NCBI GenBank assembly: GCA_041483195.1
Contig: JBGPFC010000038.1
Span: 1-33,584 of the forward strand
Direction: 5' to 3'
Length of the DNA: 33,584 nt
Source of the DNA: Candidatus Eiseniibacteriota bacterium
Lineage (GTDB): Bacteria > Eisenbacteria > RBG-16-71-46
Part shown: positions 3,001-9,000 of the stretch, piece after piece
How positions within the stretch are numbered: the first letter of the stretch is position 1
Layout of the letters: each line of letters starts with the position of its first letter
Program-made: the position numbers

Positions 3001-6000
3001 CGGTCCGGATCGGCGTCAACTGGGGCTCGCTCGATCGCGCGCTCCTCACGCGGCTGATGGACGAGAACGCGAAGCGCGCGAACCCGGTCGCGGACCGTGA
3101 GGTGGTGCTCGAGGCGATGCGCGAGAGCGCGCTGCGTTCCGCCGAGCTCGCGGAGCGCTTCGGCCTCGCGCACGATCGCATCATTCTCTCGGCGAAGGTG
3201 AGCGACGTGCGCGACCTGATCGCGGTCTACCGCGCGCTCGCATCCGCCTGCGATTATCCGCTGCACCTGGGGCTCACCGAGGCCGGGCTCGGCACCAAGG
3301 GAATCGTCGCGACCACCGCGGCGCTCGCGGTCCTGCTGGTCGAGGGGATCGGCGATACCGTCCGTACCAGCCTCACTCCGGCGCCGGGCGGCGACCGGGC
3401 CGAGGAGGTGCGCGTCTGCCAGCAGGTGCTGCAGTCACTCGGCATCCGCCACTTCACCCCGCAGGTGAGCTCGTGCCCCGGCTGCGGCCGCACCACCAGC
3501 ACCTACTTTCAGGAGCTGGCGACCGACGTCACCGCCCACATCCAGAGGCGCATGGCCGAGTGGCGCACGCGATACCCCGGCGTCGAGTCCCTGCGGGTCG
3601 CGGTGATGGGCTGCGTCGTGAACGGACCCGGCGAGAGCAAGCACGCCGACATCGGCATCTCGCTCCCCGGCACCGGTGAGAATCCGAGCGCGCCGGTGTT
3701 CGTGGACGGCAGGCTCGAGACGACGCTCAAGGGCGACGCGATCGCTGCGGACTTCGCGCGTCTGCTCGACGCGTACATCGAGCGTCGCTACGCCGCTTCC
3801 TGAGGAGCGCCGGCCCGCTCAGCGGATCAGCATCACGCTGCGCGTGAACGACTGCTGGCCGACTCGCAGCGACGCGAAGTAGATCCCCGCCGGAAGGCCC
3901 GCGGCCCGCAGCGGAGCGCTGTGGTCGCCGGGCGGCAGGTCGGCGTCCACGATGCTCTGCACCAGGTGTCCGGCCAGATCGTAGAGGCGCAGCCGCACGT
4001 GCGCGCCGGCCGGAAGCGTGAAGCGCAACGTGCTCTCGATCTGGAACGGATTGGGCCACGCCCCCTGGAACGCGATCGCCGCGCCCGGCTGCGTCACGGC
4101 CGTCGAGCCCGGCGCGACGCTCGGGGGCGGCGCGAGATCGGGCGCCGCGCCCAGCAGGCCGGGGCGATAGAGCCGCACGATCGCGTCGATCCGCCCGCTC
4201 TGGCCCGGCGTGAACTCCGATGGGGACGCGTCGATGCCGTAGTCCGTATGGAGCATTCCGAGGTAATGCCCCACCTCGTGGGCCAGCGTGTGGCCCAGGT
4301 CGTCGTTCGGAACGGAACCGCCCGGCAGCGAGCCGTAATGGATCACGACGCCGTGCATCGGATCGTCCTCGGGAAACGAGAACGGGAAGGTCGACCAGCC
4401 CAGCAGGTCGCGGCCCGGCAGGCAGGTGTACACGTTGAGACGATGCGTGGGATCGATGGCGAGCGCCTGCTTCGCTCGCTTCTCGTCGCCGGTGCCCGGC
4501 AGCAGCCTGAACCACGCCCGGCTCTCGGTGCGATCGATCGACGCCAGCGAGAAACGATAACCGGTCCCGAGAAAGTCGCGGTTGAGCTCGCGAACCTGCT
4601 CGTTGATCTGGTCGATGCCGACGTCGCCGAGATCGCCGGAGTGAATGACGTGGAAGGCGATCTGGATGGTTCCGCCCGGCGAGCGCGCGCCGGCCGGGCC
4701 GCGTGCGCGCCGCAGGCTCGCGTCCATGCGCTCGAGCTCGAGGGGCGTCGGTTCGGGCGTGCCGCAGGTGCGCGCCGCGACGGCGCCCGGCGCCTGCGCC
4801 TCCGGAGCCGCGGCGCCGGCGGTCGCGGTCGCGGCGACCGCACACACCAGCAGCGCGAGCGTACCCGCGATCAGGCGATGGAAGGGCGATGACATGGCTC
4901 GACTCGATGGGTTGGCCGGAGGCCCCGCGCGGAAGCGACGGTCCGCTCCCCGCCGGGACCAAGGCCGATGCATCGATTCTGACAGAGGACGGCGGGCGCA
5001 TTCCAGCGCCAATTCGCCGGGCGGAGGGCGGCTTCCGGGGCCGATGTGGCGCTCAGCCCGCGGCGATCGCATCGAGCGCGCGCCGCGCGAGCGAGGTGAG
5101 CGAAGGATCCCGCGCGCCCATGATGAGCACGAGGTCGCCCTCGCGCGCCTCCCGCGCGAGCCGCGCGATCAGCCACTCGCGGCTCGGCGCGAACTCGGCT
5201 TGCGCCCCGCGGGCCGCGATGTCGGCGGCGATGTCGGCGGCGGAGAAGTCGCGCTGCGCCGTGCCTCCCGCGTAGAAGACCTCGAGCAGCCAGAGCCGGT
5301 CGTCCGGCGTGAGCGCGCCGGCGAAGGTCTCGACGAAATCGCGACGCAGGAACCGCGTGGGGCCGTATCCGTGCGGCTGGTAGACCGCGAGCACGCGCCG
5401 CGCGCGAGCGTGCGCGGCCGCTAGCGTCGCCGCGATCTTCGCCGGATTGTGGGCGAAGTCGTCGACCACCTCGACGCCGCGAGCGATTCCCACCGTCTGG
5501 AAGCGGCGCGCAACGCCGCCGAATTCCGCGAGCGGCGCCGCCATCGCATCGAGCGGAACCCCGAGTGCGCGGCAGGCGGCGATCGCGGCGAGCGCGTTCT
5601 CGACGTTGTGCCGGCCGGGCGCCGGAAGGGTGAAGCGCACGCCGTCGACCTCGAATCGGCTTCCCGCGGGGTCGAGCGCGACCGCGGTGCCCCGCACCGT
5701 CGCGCGCGGTCCGAGGCCGAACACGCTCGCCCCGTCCGCGAGCGGGACCAGGCGCTCGTCCTCCCCCACCACGAAGGCTTCGCGGGTGCGCGCGCGAAAC
5801 GTCTCGAACATCGCCGCCACCTCGCTCATCTCCTTGTGGTCGCGCTGCAGGTTGAGCACGACCCCGATCGCCGGCGAATAGCGCACCAGCGAGCCGTCGC
5901 TCTCGTCGGCTTCGACGACCAGCAGATCGGAGTCTCCGGCCCACGCGTTGCCGAGCGCGCGCTCGCCCTTGAGCAAGAGCAGCTCGCCTCCGGTGATGAT

Positions 6001-9000
6001 CGAAGGCCCGCGGCCCGCGCCGCGCAGGATCTCGAACGCCATCGCGGCGACCGTCGACTTGCCGCTGGTGCCGCTCACCGCGAGCGTGCGATGGATCGCG
6101 ACGAAATGGGCGAGCAGCTCGGAGCGGTGCACAATGGGGAGGTCGCGCGCGTGCGCGGCCGCCACGTCCGGGACCTGCGACTCGACGGCGGTCGAGACCA
6201 CCAGCGCTGCGCAGTCGCCGGAAAGGCCGCTGCCGTCCTGCGGGTGGATCGCGATGCCGAGCCGCTCCAGCACGGCCCGCTCCGGCGCACGCTCGCCGCG
6301 ATCGAAGGCACGGTCGCTCCCGCTCGCGCGACCCCCGCGCATCGCCTGAAACTGGGCGAGCGCGCTCATCCCGCTCCCGCCGAGTCCCGCGTAGTGAAAC
6401 CGGCCCTGGCCGAGCGGATCGGGCATCGGCGACTCTCCGCCCTCCAGCACCAGCACGCCGTCGCCTTCCCGCACGCGTTCGAACAGATCGATCACGTCCT
6501 GGTTCGCCATGCGGACGCATCCGTGCGAATCGGGGGAACCGAGCCGCGCCTCGTGATTGGTGCCGTGCACGTAGATGAAGCGCTCGAGCGAATCGAAGCC
6601 GGGCCCGCGATTCACGCCGGGCTCGAGGCCTTCGAGGGTGAGCACGCGGGTGAGGATGAGGTCATCCTCGCGCGGCTCGCCGCGCCACACCTTCCCGGTC
6701 GGCTCGCGGCTTTCGAACACCGCGCCGCGCGGCGCGCCCGCGCCGATGCGCGCGTGCACGCGATGCCAGCCGGGCGGCGTGCGCAGCGAGCCGGACGCCC
6801 CGCCGATTCCCGCGGCGGCCGTCGAAACCGGGTACTCCGCCATGACCCGCCCCCCGTCGATCCACGAGAGCCGCTGGCGCTCGACGTCCACCACCATCAT
6901 TCGATCGGGAAGCGCGCGGAATGGCGCGCGCGGGCGTCCGAGTGCGGATCGCGCGAGACCGGGCGCACGCGAGTCATGCGCGGTGCGGGGGGACGAGTCC
7001 ATGGCCGCGCACTCTGCCACAAGCCGGCGCGCCGCACGAGCCGCGAGCGCCCGCCGGCGCGTGAATCAGCTCGCCTCGGGACCGCCGGACCAGCCGAGCG
7101 CGAGCACGAGCCATCCCGCGATGAAACACGCGCCGCCGATCGGGGTGATCGCCCCGTAGCCACGGGTACCGGTCAGCGCCAGCGCATCGAGACTCCCCGC
7201 GAACAGGAGAATGCCGGCGACGAACAGCCAGCCCGAAGCGAGCAGCGCCCGTCGCGGCCGCTGCTCGAGCGCGATCGCGATGACGATCAACGCGATCGCA
7301 TGGAACATCTGCCAGCGCACCGCGGTCTCGAGCACCGCGAGCCGGTCGGCGGGAAGCCGCGAACGGAGCGCGTGGGCGCCGAATGCGCCGGAGAGGACCG
7401 CGAGCATCGCGAACGCGGCTCCGAGCCTGGCGAAGATCATTCGCGGAGGATACGACCCACGGCCGCCCGACGCGAAGCCCCCGCGACTTACCACGTCACG
7501 GGGGCTCTCACAAGCTGGCTCCTCGGGTAGGATTCGAACCTACAACCCTCCGGTTAACAGCCGGATGCTCTACCATTGAGCTACCGAGGAAAAGAGGATG
7601 GGCGCCGCGGAGTGAACCGGCGGCGGGCGATGTCATCGGCAAGACAGGCGACGCAGTTTAGGAGCGTGCGCCGCCTGGGTCAAGCGAACCGCGCGCGGGC
7701 GCGCGCGATCGATGGTCCCCGCGAAGTCGTGAGGCTGCGGCCCCGAGCGTGACCGCCGTTCTCAACGACCCGTGGGCGCCGAGGGCTCTCCGTCCCCTTC
7801 GAGGAGCGGCAGGAACGCGCTGAAGCGCGTGCCGGTACCCGGCTCGCTCCAACACTCGATCCAGCCACCGTGCTCCTCGAGGATGTCCTTGACCACGGGA
7901 AGCCCGAGGCCCGTGCCCTGGCCCGAGTCCTTCGTCGTGAAGAACGGCTCGAAGATGCGGGCCATCACCTCCGAGGTCATGCCATGGCCCGTGTCGTGGA
8001 CGGTGAGCTCCACGAGCTTCCGCTTGGGCGCCCCGGGCTGGGCGCTCCGCCGCGGAGATCTGCCGGGTACGCTTCGTGTCGCGAGCGTGAGGCGTCCGCC
8101 ATCGGGCATCGCGTCGCGCGCGTTGATGCACAGATTGATCAGCATCTGGCCGAGGCGCGAGGCATCCGCCATCACGAGCGCCGGGGCGGCCTCCAGCCGG
8201 GTCTCGATCTCGACCCGCGGCCCGATGGTGGGCGTGAGAAATCGAATCGATTCCACCACCAGTGCGTTCAGATCGAGGGGGCGAAGATCGAGCGTCGGAC
8301 GCCGGCTGAACAGCAGCAGCTGGCGCGTGAGCTCCGCCGCGCGCAGCGCCGCGCTCTCGCTGTCGCGCAGGCCCGGCACGATGGAATGATCGGCAGGCAG
8401 CTCCGCGAGCGACAGCGACAGGTTTCCCAGGATCACGGTGAGCAGGCTGCTCAAGTCGTGCGCGATTTCGCCCGACCGCTCGCTCACGAGATCGGCCTTC
8501 GATGGCCGCCGCGCTCCCACCGCCCGGCGCCGGCGTTCGCCGTTGACGGCGATGGAAACGAGCAGTCGGGAGAAATCCCCGCCCGCGTCTCGGACCGGCA
8601 CCGCCTCGATCGTCCAGGACACCGGACGCAGTCCCACCCACTCGATCTCGACGTCGGAGTCGCGAACGCGCTCCCCGGCGGCGAGTGCGCGATTCACGAG
8701 CGCCTCCACCGCGCCTCCCGCGAAATCCGGAAAGTGCTCGGAGAGCCGGGTGCCGTCGAGGGGCCGCTCTCCCCGATAGGGCTCCAGCAGCCGCGCGTAG
8801 GCGCGGTTCCAGGCGAGCGACTCGAGCCCGGGCACCGCCACCAGCAGAACGCCGGTCTCGATGTGATCGAGCATTTCCTCGAACCGGCCGCACGTGGTGC
8901 GCAGCGCGAAGACTTGACCGATGAGGCCGCCGAGTTCCTGGGCATTCAACGCGCTCGCGCCGGATTCCGGGCCCGCTCCCTCTGGAGTCGAGCGATCCGC

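What a model noticed while it worked through the whole genome (the two positions that open the first line are those of the whole stretch)
5053..6900. Natural fusion of an ElsL-type cytoplasmic L,D-carboxypeptidase with a second MurC/Mpl-like ligase: two consecutive pept [...]
g02825 (615 aa, no signal peptide or TM helix) joins an N-terminal YkuD-fold domain of the ElsL class (aa 3-151, catalytic SHGCVRM motif intact) to a complete Mur ligase (aa 168-598) that is a paralogue of the housekeeping MurC (g00297, dcw cluster). ElsL trims recycled tetrapeptide stems to tripeptides and Mpl then ligates the tripeptide to UDP-MurNAc; the fusion links exactly these successive steps and predicts that the MurC-like paralogue is this lineage's murein-peptide ligase. 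No LdcA (Peptidase_S66) gene is present, while AnmK and NagZ-like recycling genes are.
Evidence so far: pfam.tsv: YkuD 3-151, Mur_ligase 168-268, Mur_ligase_M 275-443, Mur_ligase_C 465-597. NCBIfam: LD_carbox_ElsL NF040925 E 4e-37 (127 bits, model 9-157 of 164); murC TIGR01082 284 bits (cut 335); mpl TIGR01081 116 bits. Swiss-Prot best hits MurC 33-37% over aa 160-612. Call 171 (30 other genomes): full-length single-frame matches in 10, all in families f1 and f3, plus G005 (1-514) and G025 (57-609 in two pieces); 12 further genomes have the ligase paralogue alone (matches start at aa 141-169); the true MurC matches separately at 38-41%. No Peptidase_S66 row; AnmK g01797, Glyco_hydro_3 g01335. 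ElsL paper PMC8649774 (passages read, call 175) places ElsL directly before Mpl and mentions no natura [...]
(Added by a program. Inside this text positions count along the whole contig: contig position 1 is position 1 of the stretch shown here. "Call 12" and the like, gene names such as g00115 and contig names such as C1 are that model's own, and its searches are not shown. The text may have been shortened before it was handed on; [...] marks where a part breaks off. The agent that wrote the report below was given it as the finding of a first reader that could run no searches.)

Follow-up and report, generated by a model that had tools for sequence, protein, structure and literature searches.

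The report
Recycling carboxypeptidase fused to Mur ligase
One gene joins a cytoplasmic enzyme that probably trims used cell-wall peptides to a MurC-like ligase that has lost MurC's alanine-binding arginines, which suggests a so far unrecognised way for many bacteria to re-attach recycled wall peptides.

Summary
One open frame on the minus strand (5053-6900 as given, more likely 5053-7002, 649 aa) encodes an ElsL-like YkuD domain with an intact SHGCVRM motif. It is followed by a complete three-domain Mur ligase. All 120 best database relatives share the four-domain architecture, so this is not an assembly artefact.

The ligase is neither MurC nor Mpl by the curated models. The genome has a true MurC in its dcw cluster and no Mpl or LdcA. 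In a tree the ligase belongs to a separate clade, here called "MurC2" (71 of 113 rows, SH-aLRT 99). This clade also holds stand-alone paralogues from Bacteroidota and other phyla.

In MurC2, two of the residues that the Mpl structure paper lists as thought to bind incoming L-Ala, Arg377 and Arg380, are Gly and Pro in 70 of 71 sequences. They are Arg in 40 and 41 of 41 true MurCs.

Across 205 related genomes, canonical Mpl is absent. MurC2 co-occurs with an L,D-carboxypeptidase (ElsL-like or LdcA) in 140 of 141 MurC2-positive genomes. Eight families without MurC2 have neither carboxypeptidase.

Best reading (about 0.6): a bifunctional tetrapeptide-trimming and murein-peptide ligase. The activities are inferred, not shown.

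The parts
5053..7002 (-). Whole gene as revised here: 649-aa ElsL-like YkuD / MurC2 ligase fusion.
   Evidence: Open frame. Domains. Conserved N-terminal extension in relatives. AlphaFold2 model with mean pLDDT 83.5 and pTM 0.68.
6901..7002 (-). Conserved N-terminal extension (aa 1-34), predicted as two short helices. It is neither a signal peptide nor a TM segment.
   Evidence: Alignments A1 and A3. Helices 5-10 and 12-20 in the model. Hydropathy.
6448..6894 (-). YkuD-fold, ElsL-like domain (aa 37-185 of 649): the putative cytoplasmic L,D-carboxypeptidase.
   Evidence: PF03734 at 71.6 bits. NF040925 at 127.5 bits, model positions 9-157 of 164. Whole-genome match at 6448-6900.
6508..6528 (-). 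Catalytic motif SHGCVRM (Cys162 in 649 numbering). The upstream HGTN His is at aa 146.
   Evidence: G161, C162 and R164 are invariant in 37 fusions, and S159 is invariant and H160 nearly so. G161 and C162 are also invariant in 37 ElsL-like proteins.
6400..6447 (-). Inter-domain linker (aa 186-201), ending in the conserved PDPxGxGRFHYAG junction. Its length varies among relatives.
   Evidence: Alignment A1 shows a 33-residue insertion in P0038. pLDDT is 77-79 for residues 181-200.
6097..6399 (-). Mur ligase N-terminal domain, which binds UDP-MurNAc in MurC.
   Evidence: PF01225 at 48.9 bits.
5572..6078 (-). Mur ligase middle (ATP-binding) domain, with P-loop GTSGKS (6055-6072) and EADESD.
   Evidence: PF08245 at 45 bits. 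Motifs. Invariant in A3.
5110..5508 (-). Mur ligase C-terminal domain, which binds the incoming amino acid or peptide. It carries the MurC2-diagnostic motifs DDFAHNP (5443-5463), QPHGYGPTR (5353-5379), YAGG and GARD.
   Evidence: PF02875 at 77.8 bits. Clade-diagnostic substitutions. Residue roles from PMC3060825. Numbering verified.
7066..7494 (-). DUF423 membrane-protein gene directly upstream on the same strand. It is a recurrent neighbour, and its relevance is unproven.
   Evidence: PF04241 at 95.4 bits. Found beside the fusion or pair in 5 of the 40 related loci examined: L015, L016, L020, L034 and L035. P0129 is a DUF423+YkuD single ORF.
3819..5072 (-). Downstream ORF that overlaps the fusion's stop by 20 nt. 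Function is unknown and it is listed only as a neighbour.
   Evidence: Only a weak Por_Secre_tail match, E 9e-4. Paralogues lie next to the fusion in related loci.

Best explanation
The gene encodes a cytoplasmic bifunctional enzyme of the peptide branch of peptidoglycan recycling.

The N-terminal ElsL-like YkuD domain uses Cys162 to remove the terminal D-Ala from recycled L-Ala-gamma-D-Glu-mDAP-D-Ala stems. The stems may be free, still on anhydro-MurNAc, or already on UDP-MurNAc. [quoted passage not shown] That is the reaction Mpl performs in Proteobacteria, and it bypasses MurC, MurD and MurE.

Fusing the two (or, in some relatives, keeping them as adjacent ORFs) ties trimming to ligation. 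This would guard against making UDP-MurNAc-tetrapeptide, the dead-end product described for ldcA and elsL mutants.

Shown here: the architecture, the intact catalytic motifs, the separate clade, the replaced L-Ala-site residues and the phyletic pattern. Inferred: both activities, the substrates, and any channelling between the domains.
For: 1. Architecture and spread.
- One frame carries the four domains, and 120 of 120 top relatives share them.
- In 206 genomes of the phylum sample the ElsL-like match occurs once per genome in 91 genomes. In 89 of these it lies inside or directly beside the MurC2 ligase. In G083 and G132 it sits on a small contig without it.
- The pair occurs as two adjacent overlapping ORFs in the three loci I read frame by frame (G156, G098, G039).

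2. The N-domain.
- Its only substantial NCBIfam match is ElsL (E 4e-37), and the catalytic motif is invariant.
- It has no signal peptide and is fused to an ATP-dependent ligase, so it must act in the cytoplasm.
- ElsL itself is a cytoplasmic L,D-carboxypeptidase active on tetrapeptides (PMC9239154 and PMC8649774, passages seen).

3. The ligase is not the housekeeping MurC.
- A true MurC (522 bits) sits in the dcw cluster.
- The fusion ligase scores 284 bits, below the murC cut-off of 335.
- In the tree the bipartition MurC2 (71 rows) versus the rest has SH-aLRT 99, and the true-MurC clade (41 rows) has 95.

4. The substrate pocket.
- PMC3060825 lists HiMurC Tyr346, His348, His376, Arg377 and Arg380 as the residues believed to bind the incoming amino acid. 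The numbering was verified against the 1p3d sequence.
- Arg377 is Arg in 40 of 41 true MurCs and Arg380 in 41 of 41. They are Gly and Pro in 70 of 71 MurC2 sequences.
- Further fixed differences are H349N, the AGE Glu to Gly, and GAG to GAR, each in 71 of 71.
- E. coli Mpl also lacks both arginines (Ser and Met) and shares DDFAH.

5. ATP and Mg motifs and the N-domain are intact. The model superposes on HiMurC with UMA and ANP at TM 0.86.

6. Phyletic pattern, from my tabulation over 205 genomes without G000.
- MurC2 with an L,D-carboxypeptidase (LDC): 140. MurC2 without: 1. No MurC2 but LDC: 16. Neither: 48.
- All 10 families with MurC2 have an LDC. The 8 families without MurC2 (34 genomes) have none.
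- The ElsL-like type and LdcA largely exclude each other: 86 genomes have ElsL-like only, 66 have S66 only, and 4 have both.
- Canonical Mpl is over its cut-off in 0 of 206.
- AnmK does not follow this pattern: f13 8 of 8 and f15 5 of 5 have it, f4 0 of 13. The link is therefore specific to the peptide branch.

7. Outside the phylum, 4 of 5 genomes with MurC2 also have a true MurC and an LDC. That is S66 in three Bacteroidota and an ElsL-like gene in a Rhodospirillaceae MAG.

8. The own genome has an AmpG-like permease (186 bits), and AnmK and MurQ in one cluster.
Against: - No enzymatic data exist for any member of the fusion or of the MurC2 clade.
- The ligase resembles MurC far more than Mpl. 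HMM scores are 284 against 116 bits, PDB sequence matches are 1e-49 against 1e-19, and fold TM-scores are 0.86 against 0.71. It also lacks the Mpl-specific EADEYDxAFFDK loop.
- An invariant Arg (R550, in PTR) lies two positions after the lost Arg380 and might partly replace it.
- The ElsL match is below the curated cut-off (127.5 against 270). That model is narrow: 14 of 14 other stand-alone ElsL-like proteins also fail it, at 95-163 bits.
- No AmpD-type amidase (Amidase_2) was found in the 96.8%-complete genome, so the step that frees the peptide from anhydro-MurNAc is unaccounted for.
- The AmpG-like match is below its cut-off.
- Sixteen genomes have an LDC without MurC2, including 4 of 6 in family f6. 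The control genomes show that S66 is common in organisms without Mpl, such as B. subtilis.
- The genomes are related, so the 2x2 table overstates independence. G073 is unpublished and is counted in it.
- One Elusimicrobiales MAG (1.6 Mb) shows MurC2 as its only MurC-like gene. That would fit a MurC role there, or an incomplete bin.
- Neighbourhoods of stand-alone MurC2 genes show no consistent cell-wall genes.
Confidence: 0.6

Rival explanations
1. [quoted passage not shown] The fused YkuD domain would then serve another cytoplasmic role, such as trimming or editing UDP-MurNAc-peptides.
For: The best model and best structural matches are MurC. His348 and His376 equivalents are kept (H518, H544), and R550 lies near the lost Arg380. 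One Elusimicrobiales MAG shows only a MurC2-type gene. Public sources name stand-alone members MurC or 'Mur ligase family protein'.
Against: Arg377 and Arg380 are conserved in 40 and 41 of 41 true MurCs but replaced in 70 of 71 MurC2 sequences, together with six further fixed differences. Every member scored falls below the murC cut-off, at 284-317 bits. Four of five outside genomes and the window's own genome keep a separate true MurC. This reading does not explain why MurC2 tracks L,D-carboxypeptidases.
Confidence: 0.15
2. The ligase acts on tetrapeptide or pentapeptide, or takes peptides indiscriminately. The YkuD domain then works after ligation as a proof-reader, converting UDP-MurNAc-tetrapeptide to UDP-MurNAc-tripeptide. 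The pathway is the same but the order is reversed.
For: Mpl accepts tetra- and pentapeptides, though less well (PMC3060825, Table 3 passage). The toxic species in elsL and ldcA mutants is the tetrapeptide precursor made by Mpl. A covalently tethered trimming domain would suit product editing. No AmpD was found.
Against: Nothing here discriminates the order of the two steps. ElsL is described as acting on imported anhydro-MurNAc-tetrapeptide before ligation.
Confidence: 0.15
3. The pair belongs to a pathway other than peptidoglycan recycling. For example, it could ligate a peptide or amino acid to another nucleotide-sugar acid or metabolite, with the YkuD domain processing that product.
For: ElsL-like YkuD domains are also fused to rhamnosidase-like GH78, M23, ankyrin and GNAT domains, and some carry signal peptides, so the domain family is versatile. 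MurC2 neighbourhoods are uninformative.
Against: The N-terminal and ATP-domain motifs shared with MurC are intact. The model fits the UMA-bound MurC structure at TM 0.86. MurC2 co-occurs with LdcA, a dedicated murein tetrapeptide carboxypeptidase.
Confidence: 0.08
4. The fusion is an artefact: an assembly chimera, a read-through of two genes, or a decaying pseudogene.
For: Some relatives carry the two parts in different frames, or with a stop or frameshift (G156, G098, G039, G097, G075).
Against: All 120 of the 120 best database relatives, from many contigs up to 1.4 Mb, have the same single-ORF architecture. At least 60 genomes give full-length stop-free matches. All catalytic motifs are invariant, and both halves have high model confidence.
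Confidence: 0.01

Closest known systems
ElsL of Acinetobacter baumannii (NCBIfam NF040925; PMC8649774, PMC9239154)
   Same: Both have a YkuD fold with the SHGC(V/I)R catalytic motif, no signal peptide and a cytoplasmic location. ElsL is the best and only substantial curated match, covering model positions 9-157 of 164 at E 4e-37. It occurs in genomes that lack LdcA (86 of 90 related carriers).
   Different: The score of 127.5 bits is below the 270-bit cut-off. The domain is not a stand-alone protein of about 19 kDa: it carries a 34-aa N-terminal extension and is fused to a ligase. Its partner ligase is MurC2 and not canonical Mpl. Activity is untested.
Mpl, murein peptide ligase (TIGR01081; E. 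coli b4233, P. arcticus 3HN7; PMC3060825)
   Same: It is proposed to do the same reaction. Both are three-domain Mur ligases and both are functionally coupled to an L,D-carboxypeptidase. Both lack the MurC Arg377 and Arg380 equivalents, and both have DDFAH where MurC has DDYGH.
   Different: It scores only 116 bits against a cut-off of 388.7. It lacks the Mpl-specific EADEYDxAFFDK loop and the LEPRSNT and MSNGG motifs. True MurC scores higher on the Mpl model (212 bits) than this ligase does. It therefore descends independently from MurC and is not an Mpl orthologue.
MurC, UDP-MurNAc:L-alanine ligase (TIGR01082; 1P3D, 2F00)
   Same: MurC gives the closest sequence and fold matches (284 bits; TM 0.86 to 1p3d). 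Both share the N-domain, the P-loop, EADESD, DH, RRF and DD-x-x-H motifs.
   Different: It is below the murC cut-off, lies outside the dcw cluster and forms a separate clade. Eight clade-wide fixed substitutions include R377G and R380P in the L-Ala site.
LdcA (Peptidase_S66), the canonical recycling L,D-carboxypeptidase
   Same: It holds the same proposed step in the pathway. In this phylum it appears in the MurC2-bearing lineages that lack the ElsL-like domain: f18 39 of 41, f4 13 of 13, f2 10 of 10.
   Different: It has an unrelated fold and a serine mechanism, is absent from this genome, and was never seen fused or adjacent to MurC2 in the loci examined.
Known natural fusions of consecutive Mur-pathway steps: MurC-Ddl (NF011171) and MurE-MurF (NF008896)
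   Same: They are precedents for joining successive peptidoglycan-precursor enzymes in one polypeptide. Both models appear in the hit list through their ligase parts.
   Different: Those join two biosynthetic ligases. This joins a hydrolase of the recycling pathway to a ligase. No such fusion appeared in what my literature searches returned.

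Membership tests
YkuD L,D-transpeptidase catalytic domain (PF03734) | Pfam model over the gathering score | tested here: met
   71.6 bits against 23.4, profile positions 5-146 of 146.
YkuD L,D-transpeptidase catalytic domain (PF03734) | Catalytic His ... (S/T)HGC(I/V)R(M/L/N) motif with the nucleophilic Cys | tested here: met
   HGTN at aa 146 and SHGCVRM at aa 159-165. G161 and C162 are invariant in A3 and A4; S159 is invariant in A3.
ElsL (NF040925, cell wall-recycling L,D-carboxypeptidase) | Curated whole-protein cut-off of 270 bits | tested here: not met
   127.5 bits. All 14 of 14 other ElsL-like stand-alone proteins also fail, at 95-163 bits. The model is of the narrow 'exception' type.
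ElsL (NF040925, cell wall-recycling L,D-carboxypeptidase) | No signal peptide, cytoplasmic | tested here: met
   Hydropathy scan, and fusion to an ATP-dependent Mur ligase. The genome's other YkuD protein has a lipoprotein-like signal.
ElsL (NF040925, cell wall-recycling L,D-carboxypeptidase) | Cleaves mDAP-D-Ala of tetrapeptide stems and not pentapeptides | not testable with these tools
   Biochemistry is known only for A. baumannii ElsL (PMC9239154, passages).
ElsL (NF040925, cell wall-recycling L,D-carboxypeptidase) | Substitutes for LdcA in genomes that lack it | tested here: met
   No S66 in the genome. Of 90 related ElsL-like carriers, 86 lack S66.
Mur ligase superfamily | Three domains (PF01225, PF08245, PF02875) with the P-loop and Mg/ATP residues | tested here: met
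   All three are over their cut-offs. GTSGKS, EADESD, DH, RRF and DDxxH are invariant.
MurC (TIGR01082) | Equivalog cut-off of 335.1 bits | tested here: not met
   284 bits. The own-genome true MurC scores 521.9. Five other MurC2 members score 305-317.
MurC (TIGR01082) | L-Ala-binding residues Arg377 and Arg380 (H. influenzae numbering) | tested here: not met
   Gly545 and Pro548 stand in their place. Replaced in 70 of 71 MurC2 sequences, against Arg in 40 and 41 of 41 MurCs.
MurC (TIGR01082) | Groups with housekeeping MurCs in a tree, and lies in the dcw cluster | tested here: not met
   A separate clade with SH-aLRT 99. The neighbours are IspG, DUF423 and a histidine kinase.
Mpl (TIGR01081) | Equivalog cut-off of 388.7 bits | tested here: not met
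   116.2 bits in two stretches.
Mpl (TIGR01081) | Mpl-specific residues and loop (Ser184-Lys189 loop; Arg404-Thr407; Ser483-Gly485 of PaMpl) | tested here: not met
   The fusion has the MurC-like EADESDGS without the insertion, QPHGYGPT where Mpl has EPRSNT, and GARD where Mpl has SNGG. Only the DDFAH motif is shared.
Mpl (TIGR01081) | Ligates L-Ala-gamma-D-Glu-mDAP to UDP-MurNAc | not testable with these tools
   Inferred from context only.

The most novel reading that the evidence does not exclude
MurC2 is a second family of murein-peptide ligases that evolved independently from MurC and not from Mpl. It would be the missing 'Mpl' of this phylum, of many Bacteroidota (Chitinophagaceae, Bacteroidales, Flavobacteriia-type genera) and of other lineages where it is now annotated as MurC or 'Mur ligase family protein'. 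The fusion with an ElsL-like domain would be a built-in safeguard, through channelling or proof-reading, against the toxic tetrapeptide precursor.
Probability: 0.5. Interest if true: 0.78.

Novelty: new variant of a known kind. Interest (0 to 1): 0.66.

Why it matters
Re-use of wall peptides through LdcA and Mpl is textbook for Proteobacteria. [quoted passage not shown]

Here 70 of 206 genomes of one phylum sample have LdcA and 91 have an ElsL-like enzyme, yet none has Mpl. A MurC-derived ligase with a remodelled amino-acid pocket tracks these carboxypeptidases, and in many genomes it is fused to one.

If the reading is right, three things follow:
- It assigns a function to a large, mis-annotated clade of 'second MurC' genes, including those of Bacteroidota.
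- It shows that the murein-peptide ligase activity arose twice.
- It gives a natural 'Rosetta-stone' fusion that makes the hypothesis directly testable with one recombinant protein.

It would also correct automated annotations. The fusion is currently named 'L,D-transpeptidase family protein' or 'UDP-N-acetylmuramate--alanine ligase'.

Tried and rejected
- Complex prediction with the YkuD part (aa 1-192) and the ligase part (aa 197-649) as separate chains gave no verdict (score 0.00). It is not used either way.
- Neighbourhood analysis of stand-alone MurC2 genes, in 7 loci outside the phylum and 8 inside it, found no recurrent cell-wall genes. The MFS gene beside the Chitinophaga copy is Tet-like and not AmpG.
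- I looked for complementary distribution of MurC2 and canonical Mpl within the phylum. Mpl is absent everywhere (0 of 206), so the test was uninformative.
- I asked whether MurC2 simply follows sugar recycling. It does not: AnmK has a different distribution.
- I first read G130 and G055 as split genes from the two-piece matches. Frame analysis showed single ORFs with long linkers.
- L050 (Krumholzibacteriia MAG) has its YkuD-like and ligase parts in different frames, so I do not count it as a fusion.
- Literature searches for a described YkuD-Mur ligase fusion or a characterised 'second MurC' of this clade returned nothing relevant. 'MurC2' in Frankia and S. mutans papers appeared only in the search listing and was not read.
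- I ran no separate fold search of the YkuD domain alone, and no sequencing-run or expression search.

Full report
OBSERVATION

The window has about 70% G+C. On the minus strand one frame is open from 7020 to the stop at 5053-5055.

- YkuD 3-151 (71.6 bits)
- Mur_ligase 168-268
- Mur_ligase_M 275-443
- Mur_ligase_C 465-597

NCBIfam gives murC 284 bits (cut-off 335.1), ElsL NF040925 127.5 (cut-off 270) and mpl 116.2 (cut-off 388.7).

The fusion is not an artefact. All 120 of the 120 best hits in the 5.8-billion-cluster protein collection carry all four domains at 69-100% identity, with the window's own protein among them. They sit on contigs up to 1.4 Mb.

These relatives are mostly 640-670 aa. 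They conserve a segment upstream of ATG 6900 with consensus RAxxLARxALxRPxxPFRALPxR, and whole-genome matches begin at residues 1-17 of the longer reading. The gene therefore most likely starts at ATG 7002 (649 aa).

The N-terminus is not hydrophobic: the Kyte-Doolittle 19-residue maximum is 0.29 there and 1.52 overall. The genome's only other YkuD protein (contig C12) does have a lipoprotein-like signal.

An AlphaFold2 model built on 37 sequences has mean pLDDT 83.5 and pTM 0.68. Both halves are well folded. The low-confidence stretches are residues 1-9, the loop 65-72, and 578-583, which is the YAGGTA loop of the ligase C-domain.

SURROUNDINGS

The neighbours are as follows:
- ABC-F (9-1688, +)
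- a methyltransferase
- IspG (2559-3803, +)
- an ORF of unknown function that overlaps the fusion's stop (3819-5072, -)
- DUF423 (7066-7494, -)
- a histidine kinase / response regulator cluster

Further along lie BipA, rpoA, adk and a ribosomal-protein operon. None of these is a cell-wall gene. IspG, DUF423 and paralogues of the downstream ORF recur beside the fusion in same-family genomes, which may be simple synteny.

WHAT THE LIGASE IS

The genome (96.8% complete, 93 contigs) has a true MurC in the dcw cluster on contig C2 (521.9 bits). It has no Mpl over the cut-off. On the Mpl model the true MurC scores 212 bits and the fusion ligase only 65 + 51.

Solved structures rank MurC first (E 1e-49) and Mpl far behind (3hn7, 1e-19). 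The model superposes on H. influenzae MurC with UMA and ANP at target-normalised TM 0.86, and on Mpl at 0.71.

I built a quick IQ-TREE (LG+G4) of 113 ligase sequences. Before the tree I dropped seven loci that were duplicates of the window, frameshifted or partial, and one 23-aa fragment. Two bipartitions stand out:
- A clade of 71 rows, which I call MurC2, with SH-aLRT 99.
- A clade of 41 housekeeping MurCs with SH-aLRT 95. It includes the window genome's own MurC and E. coli MurC.

MurC2 contains the fusions and the stand-alone paralogues of the same phylum. It also contains genes from Chitinophagaceae, Bacteroidales, Paludibacter, gut Rhodospirillaceae MAGs, an Elusimicrobiales MAG and an Ozemobacter MAG.

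The outside copies are not in dcw clusters. They score 305-317 bits on the murC model, again below the cut-off. Four of the five genomes tested also have a true MurC at 377-503 bits. The 1.6-Mb Elusimicrobiales MAG shows only the MurC2 type.

[quoted passage not shown] None of the names shown among the 120 listed hits is Mpl.

THE POCKET

The Mpl structure paper (PMC3060825, passages read) names HiMurC Tyr346, His348, His376, Arg377 and Arg380 as the residues believed to bind the incoming amino acid. I verified the numbering on the 1p3d sequence: Tyr346 and His348 lie in DDYGH, and His376, Arg377 and Arg380 lie in QPHRYSR.

I compared the 41 MurC rows with the 71 MurC2 rows, looking for columns at least 85% conserved in each clade but with different residues. 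Nine columns qualified, eight of them with a near-fixed change (H. influenzae numbering where given):

| Position | MurC | MurC2 |
|---|---|---|
| P-loop (two columns) | His, Thr | Ser, Ser |
| His349 | His, 41/41 | Asn, 71/71 |
| Following Glu | Glu | Lys |
| Arg377 | Arg, 40/41 | Gly, 70/71 |
| Arg380 | Arg, 41/41 | Pro, 70/71 |
| Glu of YAAGE | Glu, 41/41 | Gly, 71/71 |
| GAG(D/N) | Gly, 41/41 | Arg (GARD), 71/71 |

E. coli Mpl also lacks both arginines (Ser and Met) and has DDFAHHP like the fusion's DDFAHNP. However, the fusion lacks Mpl's own signature loop and motifs. An invariant Arg550 two positions after the lost Arg380 is a caveat.

The ATP/Mg motifs and the N-domain motifs shared with MurC are invariant. 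UDP-MurNAc and ATP therefore remain the likely co-substrates. This last point is an inference.

THE YkuD DOMAIN

Its only substantial curated match is ElsL (E 4e-37). Other L,D-transpeptidase models score 24 bits or less.

A full scan of 1.84 billion representative proteins with the domain alone found 2919 relatives. The nearest are stand-alone proteins of 150-230 aa and a handful of fusion clusters (P0123, P0126, P0122, P0199). More distant members are fused to GH78 rhamnosidase-like, M23, ankyrin, GNAT or DUF423 parts, and some have signal peptides. The wider family is therefore not exclusively cytoplasmic.

None of 14 stand-alone relatives reaches the ElsL cut-off either (95-163 bits). That model is narrow.

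ElsL itself is a cytoplasmic L,D-carboxypeptidase active on tetrapeptides but not pentapeptides. It works upstream of Mpl, and without it Mpl makes toxic tetrapeptide precursors (PMC8649774 and PMC9239154, passages).

PHYLETIC PATTERN

The phylum sample comprises 206 genomes in 18 coded families, all of one class. G073 is unpublished and is included in the counts.

- **Fusion and split forms.** Full-length stop-free matches to the 649-aa protein occur in most of family f1. They also occur in f3, in f8, and in single genera of f2 and f4. In G156, G098 and G039 the two parts are separate, overlapping ORFs in different frames. Matches in G151-G153, G157, G143, G038 and G081 look the same but I did not read their frames.
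- **ElsL-like matches.** Matches at E <= 1e-15 occur in 91 of 206 genomes, one each. In 89 they lie in or next to the ligase. G083 and G132 have them on small separate contigs.
- **Mpl and LdcA.** Canonical Mpl is over its cut-off in 0 of 206. Peptidase_S66 (LdcA) is in 70 of 206. It is 0 of 88 in f1, 0 of 3 in f3 and 0 of 3 in f8. It is 10 of 10 in f2, 13 of 13 in f4, 39 of 41 in f18 and 5 of 6 in f6.
- **Definition of MurC2-positive.** I called a genome MurC2-positive when its best E-value was 1e-75 or lower. Genomes with only a true MurC give 1e-41 to 1e-69.

My tabulation over the 205 genomes other than G000:

| | L,D-carboxypeptidase (LDC) present | LDC absent |
|---|---|---|
| MurC2 present | 140 | 1 (G045, 70% complete) |
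| MurC2 absent | 16 | 48 |

The ten families with any MurC2 all have an LDC. The eight families without MurC2 (f5, f7, f10, f12, f13, f15, f16, f17; 34 genomes) have none. The two LDC types largely exclude each other: 86 genomes have ElsL-like only, 66 have S66 only, and 4 have both.

AnmK does not follow this pattern. It is present in f13 (8 of 8) and f15 (5 of 5) and absent in f4 (0 of 13). The association is therefore with the peptide branch and not with recycling in general.

Outside the phylum, the three Bacteroidota genomes with MurC2 have S66. The Rhodospirillaceae MAG has an ElsL-like gene elsewhere in its genome. The Elusimicrobiales MAG has neither.

These genomes are related, so the counts are descriptive and not a statistical test. 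In addition, S66 is common in organisms without Mpl (controls).

RECYCLING CONTEXT IN THE GENOME

The genome has an AmpG-like MFS permease (186 bits, below the 350 cut-off). It has a MurQ-AnmK-SpoIID-like cluster. No Amidase_2 (AmpD) was found. The step that frees the peptide from anhydro-MurNAc is unexplained, and this is the main gap in the pathway.

MECHANISM AND RIVALS

The best-supported reading is as follows. The N-domain trims tetrapeptide stems to tripeptide. The MurC2 domain ligates the tripeptide to UDP-MurNAc, doing Mpl's job with a MurC-derived scaffold. Fusion or adjacency keeps the two in step and prevents formation of the tetrapeptide precursor. I put this at about 0.6.

Rivals:
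- The same two activities in the reverse order, with product proof-reading (0.15).
- A MurC isozyme that still adds a single amino acid (0.15).
- An unrelated pathway (0.08).
- An artefact (0.01).

A separate-chain complex prediction gave no verdict and is not used.

NOVELTY

The sequences are in public databases under automatic names: 'L,D-transpeptidase family protein' and 'UDP-N-acetylmuramate-alanine ligase/lipoprotein-anchoring transpeptidase ErfK/SrfK'.

My full-text searches returned nothing relevant. I read passages of four papers and found no description of a YkuD-Mur ligase fusion or of this MurC-like clade as a peptide ligase. Subscription-only literature and supplements were not seen.

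I rate it a new variant of a known kind. The pathway logic is known, but the enzyme lineage for the ligase step and the domain fusion are not described.

Noticed in passing
window 6901-7020 (-): The gene start is probably mis-called. About 34 residues upstream of ATG 6900 are conserved in relatives, so ATG 7002 (649 aa) is the likelier start. The GTG at 7020 is also in frame.
   Followed up: yes
window 7066-7494 (-); P0129: A DUF423 membrane-protein gene sits directly upstream of the fusion. It also lies beside the fusion or pair in 5 of the 40 related loci examined (L015, L016, L020, L034, L035). One database protein (329 aa) joins DUF423 and an ElsL-like YkuD domain in a single ORF. A functional link is possible but untested.
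   Followed up: partly
P0151, P0172, P0183, P0200, P0261, P0185, P0162, P0235: ElsL-like YkuD domains also occur at the C-terminus of GH78 rhamnosidase-like proteins, M23 peptidases and ankyrin-repeat proteins, and at the N-terminus of a GNAT acetyltransferase. Some stand-alone members carry signal peptides. The family's roles are clearly wider than ElsL's.
   Followed up: partly
window 3819-5072 (-): This 417-aa ORF overlaps the fusion's stop codon by 20 nt and has only a weak Por_Secre_tail hint. Paralogues of it flank the fusion, sometimes on both sides, in related genomes (L022, L033).
   Followed up: partly
G000 contig C16:22990-26761 (L131): MurQ, AnmK and a SpoIID-domain protein lie head to tail on one strand. 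This looks like an anhydro-MurNAc salvage operon. No Amidase_2 (AmpD) gene was found anywhere in the genome.
   Followed up: partly
L032 (G156), L034 (G098), L029 (G039): In these relatives the YkuD and ligase parts are separate ORFs in different frames that overlap by about 30-65 nt. The same split seems shared by several genomes of one genus (g26). This points to a fixed frameshift or split, or to translational coupling, and not to random assembly error.
   Followed up: partly
L052 / G210 (Elusimicrobiales MAG): The MurC2-type gene lies after asd and dapB and opposite murD. It is the only MurC-like gene found in this 1.6-Mb bin. Either the bin is incomplete or MurC2 serves as MurC there.
   Followed up: no
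L041 (G010, family f4) in the tree: The fusion of G010 nests among family-f1 fusions, while other f4 genomes have ligase-only MurC2 plus LdcA. G010 and G012 have both LdcA and the fusion. This suggests lateral transfer of the fused gene.
   Followed up: no
window 7658-14519 (-): A dense two-component cluster: a PAS histidine kinase, two response-regulator ORFs and a 1054-aa hybrid kinase, with an NAD-dependent epimerase between them. It appears ordinary.
   Followed up: no
and record names: Close relatives of this gene are labelled Eisenbacteria, Methyloceanibacter, Udaeobacter, Limnocylindria, Xanthobacteraceae or 'uncultured Alphaproteobacteria' in public MAG records. These labels are too scattered to fit the 70% or higher identity and probably reflect unreliable bin taxonomy.
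   Followed up: no
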